Assembly (NCBI RefSeq): GCF_016903815.1 | Contig: NZ_CP069973.1 | DNA from: Escherichia coli | GTDB taxonomy: Bacteria > Pseudomonadota > Gammaproteobacteria > Enterobacterales > Enterobacteriaceae | DNA: 64,000 nucleotides | Reading direction: 5' to 3' (one strand) | Part shown: positions 57,401 to 60,400 of the stretch, piece by piece | How positions within the stretch are numbered: the first letter of the stretch is position 1 | How the letters are laid out: each line of letters starts with the position of its first letter | Position numbers: made by a program

Positions 57401-60400
57401 TGGTATCGGAGGTGCGGCAATGATCGCAGCGCCTGGCGTAACGCGCTTTGTCGGTGCGGGTGGCATGGAAGCGGCCAGAACCGTTTCTGAAGAGATGGCG
57501 GAAATTTACCTTGAGCGCAATATGCAGTTGCAGATCCCCGGCTGGGATTTCCAGGGCGCGTGCCTGGGACTGGACATTCGTCGCGTGGTAGAAACCGGCA
57601 TTACGCCACTCATCAATACCGGTATCGCCCATAAAGAGGCGGGGATCGGGCAGATTGGCGCAGGCACTGTGCGGGCACCGTTGGCCTGCTTTGAACAGGC
57701 GCTGGAAGCACTGGCTGAAAGCATGGGGATTGGTTGAGGAACGCGCAATGACGATCATCCATCCTCTGCTTGCCAGCCGTAGCGCTCCGAATTATCGCCA
57801 GTCCTGGCGGTTAGCGGGCGTGTGGCGGCGGGCGATTAACCTGATGACGGAAAGCGGCGAACTGTTAACGCTGCATCGTCAGGGTAGTGGTTTCGGCCCC
57901 GGAGGATGGGTGCTTCGCCGCGCGCAATTCGATGCGTTATGCGGTGGATTATGCGGCAATGAACGACCACAGGTTGTGGCTCAAGGCATTTGCCTCGGAC
58001 GTTTCACGGTTAAACAGCCACAGCGTTATTGTTTGCTGCGTATTACGCCGCCTGCGCATCCTCAACCGCTTGCAGCGGCATGGATGCAACGCGCGGAGGA
58101 AACCGGGCTTTTCGGGCCGCTGGCGTTGGCGGCAGGCGATCCGCTGCCTGCTGAATTACGCCAGTTTCGTCACTGTTTTCAGGCCGCGCTCAATGGCGTT
58201 AAGACCGACTGGCGGCACTGGCTGGGTAAAGGGCCGGGATTAACGCCGAGTCATGATGACACGCTGACGGGAATGCTGCTGGCAGCCTGGTATTATGGCG
58301 CTTTAGATGCGCGCTCCGGTCGCCCGTTTTTTGCCTGTTCCGACCATCTTCAACTCGTTACCACTGCGGTGAGCGTTAATTATTTACGTTATGCCGCGCA
58401 AGGATATTTCGCCTCGCCACTCCTGCACTTTGTTCATGCTCTGAGTTGCCCGAAACGTACCGCTGTTGCGATTGATTCGCTGCTGGCGCTGGGACATACG
58501 TCAGGGGCAGATACGCTGCTGGGGTTCTGGCTTGGTCAACAATTATTACAAGGAAAACCATGAAAACACTGGTTGTAGCTCTTGGGGGCAATGCCTTGCT
58601 TCAGCGCGGTGAGGCGCTGACGGCAGAAAATCAATATCGCAATATCGCCAGCGCTGTACCCGCACTGGCGTGCCTGGCCCGTTCTTATCGGCTGGCGATT
58701 GTTCACGGCAACGGGCCACAGGTGGGGCTGTTGGCGTTACAGAATCTGGCGTGGAAAGAGGTAGAACCGTATCCGCTGGATGTGCTGGTGGCGGAAAGCC
58801 AGGGGATGATTGGCTATATGCTGGCGCAGAGCTTGAGCGCACAGCCGCAGATGCCGCCTGTCACGACGGTGCTGACGCGCATTGAGGTTTCGCCTGATGA
58901 TCCGGCGTTTTTGCAGCCAGAGAAGTTTATCGGTCCGGTTTATCAGCCAGAAGAACAAGAGACACTGGAAGCGGCTTACGGCTGGCAGATGAAACGTGAT
59001 GGTAAATATTTGCGCCGGGTGGTAGCGTCTCCGCAACCGCGTAAAATTCTCGACAGCGAAGCCATCGAGTTGTTGCTCAAAGAGGGGCATGTGGTGATTT
59101 GCAGTGGCGGCGGCGGTGTGCCTGTGACGGATGACGGAGCAGGGAGTGAAGCAGTGATTGATAAAGATCTCGCCGCTGCGTTGCTCGCCGAGCAGATTAA
59201 TGCCGATGGGCTGGTGATCCTCACCGATGCTGATGCGGTATATGAAAACTGGGGAACGCCGCAGCAACGTGCCATTCGCCATGCCACACCGGATGAGTTA
59301 GCGCCATTTGCCAAAGCCGATGGTTCGATGGGGCCGAAGGTAATGGCGGTGAGTGGCTATGTCAGAAGCCGTGGCAAACCTGCGTGGATTGGGGCGTTAT
59401 CGCGGATTGAAGAGACGCTGGCGGGCGAAGCGGGGACCTGTATTTCGCTGTAGTGATTGGGGTATTTGGCAAGAATTAAGGCTCTGAGAAAGATTCCAAA
59501 CCCCAAATAAGAACGCGGACAGTCCCCTCGCCCCTGTGGGGAGAGGGTTAGGGTGAGGGGGAAAACTGCTTGCGCATTAGCTTTTAAGCAGGTTTGTGCA
59601 CCAGGTTAACTGAACTTACTCTGCGCCCAAATCACGCCACTGGCATACTCCGGCGGCAGCAGCGGGATTAAGGCTTCCAGCGCCGCGGTCAGACGCGATG
59701 TGTCGCTGTCGGTCAAATTCAGATGCCCCACTTTACGCCCCGGACGGACTTCTTTGTCGTACCAGTGCAGATGCACCAGCGGCAATTTCAGCCAGTCATA
59801 ATTCACATCGCTACCAATCAGGTTGATCATCACCGACGGACTATTCACTACTGGTTGCGGTAACGGCAGATCGGTAATCGCCCGCAGATGCAGCTCAAAC
59901 TGGCTGATGCTGGCACCGTTTTGCGTCCAGTGACCACTGTTATGCACACGCGGAGCCAGTTCGTTGATCAGCAGACCTTGCGGGGTGACAAAGCACTCCA
60001 TCGCCATCACGCCCACATAGCCCAGCTCCTGCATAATCGCCGACAGCATCTCTTCGGCTTGCGCTTGCTGCTGCGCATTGGCCTGCGGGAAAGCGACGCT
60101 GGTACGCAAAATACCGTCCTGATGCAGGTTATGCGTCAGCGGATAAAACACGGTGCTACCATCAAAGCCGCGCGCGCCAACCAGCGACACTTCGCCAGAG
60201 AAGTTTATGCCCTGCTCGACAATACATTCGCCGTAGCATTCAGCCGGTAACTGTTCGGTTTCATCGGCGCGTAAACGCCATTGACCGCGTCCGTCATAGC
60301 CACCAGTGCGACGCTTAACAATCGCCAGCTCACCTAAACGCTTAAACACCGCAGGCCACTCGCTGCGATCGGCAAGTAACTGCCACGGTGCGGTCGGTAG

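What the first reader, a model, noticed from the sequence alone, without database searches (positions are those of the whole stretch)
59454..59605. GC-rich palindromic repeat in the ybcF-purK convergent intergenic region
cccctcgcccctgtggggagagggttagggtgaggggg (about 59521-59570) is an imperfect palindrome resembling dispersed E. coli intergenic repeats; it is preceded by a second inverted repeat (ttggggtatttgg ... ccaaaccccaa). It may terminate both convergent transcripts or bind a nucleoid protein.
Basis: seen in the sequence. Interest (0 to 1): 0.2.

Follow-up and report, generated by a model that had tools for sequence, protein, structure and literature searches.

The report
BoxC repeat between ybcF and purK
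The GC-rich palindrome is a copy of BoxC, a long-known short repeat scattered through E. coli genomes, and this exact copy is already in a published catalogue, so the finding is real but ordinary.

Summary
The 38-nt string sits at 59524-59561 in the 152-nt spacer between convergent ybcF and purK.

It is a BoxC element, also called a PIT element or TM_ECO. It is of subtype "A mm": CCCTCGCCCC-TGT-GGGGAGAGGG-TTA-GGGTGAGGGG. It matches several E. coli K-12 copies at 35 of 36 positions. Related copies occur at a median of 19 places per E. coli genome. Holder et al. 2015 list this exact element at this locus in UTI89 and APEC O1.

The terminator idea is not supported. No canonical terminator lies in the spacer on either strand. 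The two flanking inverted repeats fold no better than ordinary sequence. As relayed by Holder et al., published tests found no promoter or terminator activity for these elements. Binding of a nucleoid protein could not be tested here.

The more interesting point is the spacer itself. This allele occurs in only 237 of 5426 complete E. coli genomes. All eight other alleles I read hold 1-5 REP/BIME units and share only about 4 and 11 nt with it at the two ends. The allele is identical in lineages whose flanking genes differ by about 3%. It therefore looks like a switched intergenic region, which is a known phenomenon.

Verdict: already known, low interest.

The parts
59454..59605 (.). Whole ybcF-purK spacer, 152 nt. 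This is the BoxC allele, found in 237 of 5426 complete E. coli genomes. It contains no REP/BIME.
59525..59560 (+). 36-nt BoxC / PIT / TM_ECO core of subtype A mm. The purine blocks lie on the + strand.
   Evidence: Holder Table 1; Holder Table S8 lists the identical string in UTI89 and APEC O1
59520..59565 (+). Extended repeat unit: CAGT, then the core, then G and AAAA. This is the extent of similarity to other copies (wcaK-wzxC and fabI-ycjD).
   Evidence: (matches cover 59520-59569 at most)
59525..59534 (+). Block 1, pyrimidine arm CCCTCGCCCC
59538..59547 (+). Block 2, purine arm GGGGAGAGGG. It forms a Watson-Crick hairpin with block 1, with one mismatch. Loop 1 is TGT at 59535-37.
59551..59560 (+). 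Block 3, purine arm GGGTGAGGGG. It is the proposed third strand of the triplex. Loop 2 is TTA at 59548-50, which marks type A.
59538..59561 (+). Canonical G-quadruplex motif (G3+ N3 G3 N3 G3 N3 G3+). It is one of only two such sites in the 64 kb.
59457..59506 (.). Left inverted repeat, arms 59457-69 and 59496-506. It is single-copy sequence specific to this allele. Its folding is no better than chance.
59562..59595 (.). Right inverted repeat, arms 59562-71 and 59586-95. On the - strand the stem is followed by only UUUU and then C's, so it is not a canonical terminator. It is specific to this allele.
59595..59605 (.). TGTGCACCAGG. Apart from TGAT at 59454-57, this is the only stretch shared with the REP/BIME alleles of other strains.

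Best explanation
The palindrome is a BoxC element, also called a PIT element or TM_ECO, of subtype A mm. BoxC is a short, three-block, G/C-rich repeat scattered through the intergenic regions of E. coli and related bacteria.

Shown here: the identity, the copy number, the location, and the fact that this exact copy is already catalogued.

Most likely mode of action (inferred): it is not a dedicated terminator or regulator of ybcF or purK. It is structure-prone repeated DNA. When the G-rich + strand is single-stranded it can fold into a hairpin, a purine-motif intrastrand triplex or a G-quadruplex; the triplex was shown in vitro by CD and NMR and the G-quadruplex-hairpin transition is supported by CD, both by others. 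Here the G-rich strand is the lagging-strand template, judging from GC skew. Such folding can hinder replication or repair, which makes the surrounding spacer unusually changeable.

Consistent with that, the whole 152-nt spacer is a non-homologous alternative to the REP/BIME arrays that nearly all other E. coli carry at this site. It has spread unchanged into at least three different flanking haplotypes.

Both transcripts probably run into the element. Any effect on their 3' ends would be incidental, for example a hairpin acting as an exonuclease barrier, or the C-rich strand in purK RNA acting as a Rho loading stretch. No such effect has been demonstrated.
For: Identity:
- The element has the exact three-block architecture and matches K-12 TM_ECO copies 7, 9, 11, 15, 16, 19 and 22 at 35 of 36 positions. 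The one difference is in loop 1.
- A copy lies in the fabI-ycjD spacer of K-12, upstream of fabI. fabI is the old envM, the gene whose sequencing paper Holder et al. cite as one of the two 1990s descriptions of BoxC.
- Holder's Table S8 lists the identical 36-mer at UTI89 562046-562081. That lies inside my UTI89 match at 561975-562126.

Dispersal: related copies occur in 5425 of 5426 genomes, at a median of 19 places per genome. Strain 7/2, whose sequence around the locus is essentially identical to the window, has 16.

Not a terminator: no terminator-like site lies at the element. Nothing in Rfam reaches a gathering score, and the best match has E 0.4. Holder et al. state that PIT elements showed no promoter or terminator activity, and that their positions relative to ORFs and operons show no pattern.

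Structure-prone DNA and instability: a triplex forms in vitro on the single strand but was not detected on duplex DNA or in vivo, and TM loci are more variable between strains than control loci. Circular dichroism supports a switch between G-quadruplex and hairpin. A G-quadruplex motif is present at 59538-59561. GC skew of the window is +0.036.

Switched spacer:
- Only 237 of 5426 genomes carry this allele.
- The eight other alleles I read hold 1-5 BIME units and share only TGAT and TGTGCACCAGG with it.
- Window and S88 differ at 154 of 4800 aligned positions, but at none in 59439-59617. Each lineage's flanking variants match REP/BIME-bearing strains; for S88 these are ATCC 25922, JJ2434 and ECO20.
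Against: - No expression or 3'-end data were available for any strain with this allele, so an effect on ybcF or purK transcripts is not excluded.
- The published negative tests for terminator activity were done on other copies. I know them only through Holder et al.'s summary, because the original paper is not held.
- Holder et al. found no triplex on duplex DNA or in vivo, so the link between structure and instability is a correlation, not a demonstrated mechanism.
- The spacer is perfectly conserved across divergent backgrounds: about 5-7 changes expected, and only one 1-nt deletion seen (in strain Ch1). That could equally mean purifying selection on a function.
- A genome paper on Enterobacter sp. 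638 presumed that related repeats act in termination.
Confidence: 0.85

Rival explanations
1. Bidirectional terminator or RNA 3'-end stabiliser. The hairpin formed by BoxC in both RNAs stops RNA polymerase or blocks 3' exonucleases for ybcF and purK transcripts. Alternatively, the C-rich purK-strand RNA loads Rho.
For: - The element lies 71 nt after the ybcF stop and 45 nt after the purK stop, between convergent genes.
- Both RNA strands are predicted to fold: -22.4 kcal/mol on the + strand and -18.6 kcal/mol on the - strand.
- On the - strand the RNA carries a run of about 25 nt that is rich in C and poor in G.
- No other canonical terminator lies in the spacer, so something else must end these transcripts.
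- The Enterobacter sp. 638 genome paper presumed such a role for related repeats.
- In other strains the same position holds REP/BIME. From general knowledge, REP can stabilise the upstream mRNA.
Against: - No U-run follows the stem on either strand. After the hairpin come GAAAACUG on the + strand and GACUGUCCGCG on the - strand.
- The hairpin energies are only about 1.8 sd better than shuffles.
- PIT elements showed no terminator activity in the functional study summarised by Holder et al..
- K-12 copies lie more often upstream than downstream of ORFs, at no preferred distance.
Confidence: 0.12
2. Regulatory switch in nucleic-acid topology. The element toggles between duplex, hairpin, triplex and G-quadruplex, for example with K+/Mg2+ levels or supercoiling, and so modulates the neighbouring genes.
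For: - A canonical G-quadruplex motif with three 3-nt loops lies at 59538-59561.
- Circular dichroism shows a K+/Mg2+-dependent transition for this motif family.
- The loops are conserved among copies.
Against:
- In vivo DMS footprinting did not show protection.
- There is no association with gene class, distance or operon position.
- Here the element lies at the 3' ends of both genes, away from any promoter.
Confidence: 0.06
3. Binding site for a nucleoid-associated or other DNA-binding protein.
For: The only support is by analogy: from general knowledge, REP/BIME elements bind IHF, gyrase and Pol I. The high sequence conservation of the blocks across copies would be compatible with protein recognition.
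Against: None of the papers I read reports a binding protein. The conserved features are explained equally well by descent from a common repeat.
Confidence: 0.04
4. Chance palindrome, or a diverged REP/BIME element.
For: None. REP/BIME does occupy this spacer in other strains.
Against: None of 100 shuffles gave a match. The family has thousands of near-identical copies across genomes. REP core words are absent from 59454-59605 even with up to 2 mismatches, although they occur elsewhere in the window.
Confidence: 0.01

Closest known systems
BoxC (Bergler et al. 1992; Bachellier et al. 1999), also called PIT elements (Hoyne et al. 2000) or TM_ECO type A mm (Holder et al. 2015, PMC4666352)
   Same: Three-block sequence, loop lengths, the TTA second loop, the single mismatch in the hairpin, the intergenic location and the multi-copy dispersal. 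The identical 36-mer at this locus is listed for UTI89 and APEC O1 in Holder's Table S8.
   Different: Only loop 1 differs: TGT here, against TTT, TCT, TCC or CTT in the K-12 type A mm copies. K-12 has no copy at this locus; it has REP/BIME there.
HPGQ G-quadruplex / hairpin motif of Kaplan et al. 2016 (PMC5100583)
   Same: The same sequence family viewed as a G-quadruplex motif. The paper contains the string GAGAGGGTTAGGGTGAGGG.
   Different: This is a different structural reading of the same repeat, not a different element.
REP / BIME elements
   Same: Short palindromic intergenic repeats. They occupy this very spacer, and the wcaK-wzxC spacer, in most other E. coli, so the two act as alternative occupants.
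   Different: There is no sequence similarity, and REP core words are absent from the spacer. REP has known protein partners and effects on mRNA stability (general knowledge). None of the papers I read reports any such partner or effect for BoxC.
Switched intergenic regions / horizontal regulatory transfer (Oren et al. 2014, as cited in Thorpe et al. 2018 'Piggy', PMC5890482)
   Same: Non-homologous alternative spacers lie between the same conserved gene pair, and their distribution disagrees with the flanking-gene haplotypes.
   Different: Here the spacer lies between two 3' ends (the 'double terminator' class), so rewiring of a promoter is not at stake.
CCCTCTCCC-XX(X)-GGGAGAGGG repeats of Enterobacter sp. 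638 (PMC2869309)
   Same: The same hairpin core, with TGT as a common loop. They are often found at 3' ends of genes.
   Different: They were described as two-block hairpins in another genus. The termination role was presumed, not tested.

Membership tests
BoxC / PIT / TM_ECO | Three consecutive blocks of about 10 nt: a pyrimidine block, a complementary purine block, and a mirror-repeated purine block, separated by loops of 1-6 nt | tested here: met
   CCCTCGCCCC-TGT-GGGGAGAGGG-TTA-GGGTGAGGGG at 59525-59560. This is the same layout as Holder's Table 1.
BoxC / PIT / TM_ECO | Near-identity to described members. Subtype A has the TTA second loop, and 'mm' means one mismatched triplet (the G in CCCTCGCCCC). 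| tested here: met
   35 of 36 positions match K-12 copies 7, 9, 11, 15, 16, 19 and 22. All block positions are identical.
BoxC / PIT / TM_ECO | Dispersed in many copies in the same species | tested here: met
   Median 19 places per genome in 5425 of 5426 E. coli genomes. There are 16 in strain 7/2, whose spacer is identical to the window's, and one copy in the 64-kb window itself.
BoxC / PIT / TM_ECO | Intergenic location | tested here: met
   It lies between the ybcF stop and the purK stop, and no annotated feature lies under it.
BoxC / PIT / TM_ECO | Already recorded as a member at this locus | tested here: met
   Holder's Table S8 lists UTI89 NC_007946 562046-562081 and APEC O1 563644-563679 with the identical string. 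My UTI89 spacer match is at 561975-562126.
BoxC / PIT / TM_ECO | The single strand forms an intrastrand triplex or G-quadruplex in vitro | not testable with these tools
   Others showed a triplex by CD and NMR and a G-quadruplex-hairpin transition by CD for family members. ViennaRNA models only Watson-Crick hairpins.
Intrinsic (Rho-independent) terminator | A G+C-rich stem-loop immediately followed by a U-run | tested here: not met
   The scan makes no call at the BoxC hairpin or at either flanking inverted repeat. Its single call is a 5-bp stem at 59533-59517, which equals the shuffle expectation of 1.0. The sequence after the stems is GAAAAC on the + strand and GACUGUCC on the - strand.
REP / BIME | REP consensus palindrome (GCCKGATGCGRCG..., CGYCTTATCMGGCCTAC) | tested here: not met
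   REP core words taken from the K-12 allele do not occur in 59454-59605 with up to 2 mismatches. They do occur elsewhere in the window.
Any Rfam RNA family | Covariance-model score at or above the gathering threshold | tested here: not met
   The best match is Antizyme_FSE at 19 bits against a gathering score of 40, E 0.4. It is a chance likeness of the CCCCUC/GAGGGG stem.
Switched intergenic region | Two or more spacers with no significant similarity to each other, between the same conserved gene pair | tested here: met
   The window spacer against eight REP/BIME alleles shares only 8-11 nt words (best E 0.048). The flanking genes are 95-99% identical in 5425 genomes.

The most novel reading that the evidence does not exclude
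The BoxC-bearing spacer behaves as a discrete non-coding cassette. The same 152 nt, with no substitutions, sits in at least three flanking haplotypes: the window's lineage, the B2 lineage that includes S88 and UTI89, and strain Ch1. The first lineage-specific variants appear only 12-16 nt outside the spacer, and each set of flanks matches relatives that carry REP/BIME.

The closest other BoxC copy, between wcaK and wzxC, shows the same alternation of BoxC, BIME array and empty spacer. This could mean that BoxC spacers and BIME spacers are exchanged at particular intergenic hot spots by something more specific than ordinary homologous recombination. Examples would be structure-induced breaks followed by very short-patch repair, or selection that keeps the cassette intact.
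Probability: 0.15. Interest if true: 0.4.

Novelty: already known. Interest (0 to 1): 0.1.

Why it matters
It matters little as a discovery. The element family has been described since 1992, and this copy is in a published table.

Its practical value is for annotation. The spacer should be labelled as BoxC / TM_ECO rather than as a terminator.

The locus is also a clean example of an intergenic region that has been swapped wholesale, BoxC allele against REP/BIME arrays of 1-5 units, between E. coli lineages. If the cassette-like spread proved to have a specific mechanism, it would bear on the open question of what BoxC elements do and why the loci that carry them are unstable.

Tried and rejected
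- Rfam at a permissive E-value gave only chance matches.
- The consensus promoter and terminator scan found nothing at the element.
- The flanking hairpins do not work as terminators or structured RNAs. Their energies are indistinguishable from shuffles and from natural windows.
- I looked for other copies of the allele-specific flanks. E. coli has none outside the 237 genomes. The plasmid collection has none, apart from one chromosome filed as a plasmid and a chance 29-nt hit.
- A scan of GTDB species representatives for a 20-mer of the left hairpin returned only a chance hit in an AT-rich Flavobacteriales MAG. I do not lean on this negative. From memory I expected the E. coli representative to be the type strain ATCC 11775, which carries the allele, yet no E. 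coli hit came back.
- Looking for residual homology between the BoxC spacer and the REP/BIME spacers found only TGAT and TGTGCACCAGG. The words GCATTAG and TTTGTGC are shared with the K-12 left end at E=12, which is not significant.
- A whole-word literature search for 'box C' with REP, ERIC and RSA gave 0 papers.
- The primary functional paper (Hoyne and Maher 2002) is not held.
- MITE hypothesis: I saw no terminal inverted repeats by eye, and no empty-site allele matched the flanks-only query. I rejected it.
- Small ORFs overlapping the spacer (44 aa on +, 49 aa on - with a TTG start) were not pursued. They are mechanical ORFs that overlap gene ends.
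Full report
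**1. What is in the sequence**

The interval 59454-59605 is the 152-nt spacer between two convergent genes. One ORF on the + strand ends with TAG at 59451-59453. One ORF on the - strand has its stop at 59606-59608. Strain 7/2 matches the surrounding 551 nt exactly, and RefSeq annotates these ORFs there as ybcF (carbamate kinase) and purK.

None of 100 shuffles produced a match. The spacer contains three inverted repeats:
- The GC-rich one, whose outer arms are 59524-33 and 59551-60.

The two AT-richer repeats are real as strings but fold no better than chance. Their z-scores lie between 0 and -0.9, and about 65% of natural 59-nt windows from this same 64 kb fold at least as well as the left one and at least 69% as well as the right one. 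The whole 181-nt region has z = -0.4 on the + strand and -1.8 on the - strand.

**2. What the palindrome is**

A 49-nt query centred on the element finds related sequence in 5425 of 5426 complete E. coli genomes. The median is 19 places per genome, almost all on chromosomes. The similarity to other copies covers only 59520-59569, so the repeated unit is about 46-50 nt and the flanking hairpins are not part of it.

A full-text search for the core string led to Holder et al. 2015 (PMC4666352) and Kaplan et al. 2016 (PMC5100583). Holder et al. state that this motif was first described in the 1990s as BoxC. It was found again as the 'potential intrastrand triplex' (PIT) element by Hoyne et al. 2000, and Holder et al. 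call it TM_ECO.

Their Table 1 lists the 23 K-12 copies. The window's element, CCCTCGCCCC-TGT-GGGGAGAGGG-TTA-GGGTGAGGGG, has exactly the 'type A mm' layout. It differs from copies 7, 9, 11, 15, 16, 19 and 22 by one base in loop 1.

I checked one point independently. K-12 has a copy in the fabI-ycjD spacer, upstream of fabI. fabI is the old envM, and the envM sequencing paper (Bergler et al. 1992) is one of the two references Holder et al. give for the 1990s description of BoxC.

Their Supplementary Table S8 lists the identical 36-mer at UTI89 562046-562081 and at APEC O1 563644-563679. The UTI89 coordinates fall inside my own UTI89 match to this spacer, 561975-562126. So this very copy is already catalogued.

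Petrillo et al. 2008 also recovered BoxC as a known E. coli family: 22 copies with a 50-nt model, against 32 copies of 56 bp in the earlier literature. Rfam has no matching family.

**3. Does it terminate transcription or bind a protein?**

The consensus scan finds no stem plus T-run at the element or at either flanking repeat. Its single call in 1 kb is a 5-bp stem on the - strand, which is what shuffles give.

As RNA, the + strand folds at -22.4 kcal/mol and the - strand at -18.6 kcal/mol. That is only about 1.8 sd better than shuffles, and neither hairpin is followed by a U-run.

Holder et al. summarise the functional study of Hoyne and Maher (2002). PIT elements block DNA polymerase in vitro. 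They showed no promoter or terminator activity, had no effect on RNA polymerase and had no effect in vivo. I could not read the primary paper. In K-12 the copies lie more often upstream than downstream of ORFs, at no preferred distance, and with no link to gene class or operon position.

The opposite view appears only as a presumption, in the Enterobacter sp. 638 genome paper.

One point remains in favour of some 3'-end role: the spacer has no other canonical terminator, and on the purK RNA the element supplies a C-rich, G-poor stretch that could load Rho (inference). I therefore give the terminator or stabiliser reading about 12%. I found no evidence for or against protein binding.

**4. How it most likely works**

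Others have shown three things. The G-rich single strand forms a very stable purine-motif triplex in vitro. Duplex DNA and in vivo DMS footprinting show no triplex. TM loci are much more variable between E. coli strains than control intergenic regions. Kaplan et al. report a K+/Mg2+-dependent transition between G-quadruplex and hairpin, supported by circular dichroism.

In the window, the G-tracts at 59538-59561 form a textbook G-quadruplex motif, one of only two such sites in 64 kb. The window has positive GC skew, +0.036. By inference, this places the G-rich strand on the lagging-strand template, which is single-stranded at each round of replication.

The best-supported reading is therefore that the element is structure-prone repeated DNA with no dedicated role in ybcF or purK expression. 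Its main visible consequence is local instability of the spacer. The mechanistic link remains an inference.

**5. The spacer is a switched allele**

Only 237 of 5426 genomes carry this spacer, and 235 of them match at 99% identity or better. Yet 5425 genomes carry the flanking gene ends at 95-99% identity.

I read eight other alleles: K-12, CB209, CX08, JJ2434, ECO20, REL606, HS and ATCC 25922. All consist of REP/BIME units, from one to five in tandem, giving spacers of 126-533 nt. They share only TGAT at the ybcF end and 8-11 nt (TGTGCACCAGG) at the purK end with the window's spacer. The window's spacer has no REP.

The allele-specific flanks of BoxC are single-copy in E. coli. No empty-site version, meaning the flanks without BoxC, exists in the collection.

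The window's 5.7 kb around the locus is identical, or differs at a single base (strain 7/2), in a lineage that includes strains 222, AR_0015, WCHEC4533, 50579417 and an O102:H6 isolate. S88, UTI89 and Z0117EC0054 carry the same spacer. Their flanking 4.6 kb differs from the window's at 154 positions, about 3.3%, with none in 59439-59617.

S88's flanking variants are those of strains such as ATCC 25922, JJ2434 and ECO20, which carry BIME. The window's ybcF-side variants nearest the spacer match CX08 and CB209, which also carry BIME. A third background, strain Ch1, differs in the spacer only by a 1-nt deletion in a G-run.

With about 5-7 changes expected in 152 nt at the flank rate, seeing none or one has a probability below 1% (my Poisson estimate). 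Either the allele has spread recently by very short recombination patches, or it is under constraint.

Holder's tables add that genomes of the S88/UTI89 group have only 1-2 perfect TM_ECO copies in total, and this is one of them. K-12 has 23. This suggests, as an inference, that the allele was imported into that lineage.

Replacement of one intergenic region by a non-homologous one between conserved genes is a described phenomenon, known as horizontal regulatory transfer or 'switched IGRs'.

**6. A second locus behaves the same way**

The closest other copy, 94% identical over 48 nt, lies between wcaK and wzxC. There too the BoxC allele is in a minority, 275 genomes. A K-12 derivative has two BIMEs. 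PCN033 has a bare 71-nt spacer. Other strains have spans that step by roughly 96-100 nt, as BIME arrays do.

**7. Verdict**

- The guess that it is a dispersed repeat is right, and the repeat can be named precisely.
- The terminator and nucleoid-protein ideas are unsupported.
- The element is already known, down to this copy.
- The only mildly novel thread is the cassette-like distribution of the whole spacer, which I rate as unlikely to need a special mechanism.

Interest: 0.1.

Noticed in passing
L002 2412-2572 (NCTC86 wcaK-wzxC spacer); L017 131-405; L018 133-203: The BoxC copy closest to the window's lies in the wcaK-wzxC spacer and shows the same polymorphism. The BoxC allele, with its own unique flanks, is in 275 genomes. 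A K-12 derivative has two BIMEs. PCN033 has a bare 71-nt spacer. Other strains have spans that step by roughly 96-100 nt.
   Followed up: partly
window 59439-59617, compared with L014 (S88) and L016 (Ch1): The spacer is an island of identity. Window and S88 show no differences across these 179 nt, inside 4.8 kb that differs at 154 positions. The nearest lineage-specific variants are at 59438/59450 and 59618/59639, only 12-16 nt outside the spacer. Such short homology is hard to reconcile with simple RecA-mediated import.
   Followed up: partly
Holder et al. 2015 supplementary tables: Genomes of the S88/UTI89 group (UTI89, UM146, IHE3034, PMV-1, S88, APEC O1) have only 1-2 perfect TM_ECO copies, against 23 in K-12 and 26 in SE11. 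In UTI89, whose single copy is listed in the passages I read, it is the ybcF-purK one. BLAST places per genome in my search also split into about 5-6 and about 15-16 among carriers of the allele.
   Followed up: no
L014 4822-5151 (S88, purE-lpxH spacer); window about 61207-61295: S88 and Z0117EC0054 have a purE-lpxH spacer about 420 nt longer than the window's, carrying an annotated 109-aa hypothetical protein (WP_001188438.1). The window, strain 7/2, K-12 and Ch1 lack it.
   Followed up: no
L008 255-787 (JJ2434) and L009 255-586 (ECO20): The same spacer holds five (JJ2434, 533 nt) or three (ECO20, 332 nt) near-identical tandem BIME units of about 100 nt. In JJ2434 the word GCACCAGG occurs at both ends of the array.
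   Followed up: no
L004 5395-5412 (K-12, 3' end of ycjD): A two-block BoxC-like hairpin (CCCTCGCTCT-TTC-AGGGAGAGGG) without the third block lies at or over the 3' end of ycjD. It is about 170 nt from the full BoxC copy in the fabI-ycjD spacer.
   Followed up: no
window 708, 22930-23030, 26006-26018, 27493: REP core words occur at these places in the window, so the genome has ordinary REP/BIME elements elsewhere even though this spacer has none.
   Followed up: no
window 57267-57289: The only other G-quadruplex motif in the 64 kb (GGGATTCGGGTCAGCGGGCTGGG) lies inside the ylbE coding sequence on the + strand.
   Followed up: no
Genome-contig scan: A 20-mer from this spacer was not found in any E. 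coli representative. From memory I expected the type strain ATCC 11775, which carries the allele, to represent the species. Either the representative differs or the scan missed it, so negatives from that scan should be treated with care.
   Followed up: no
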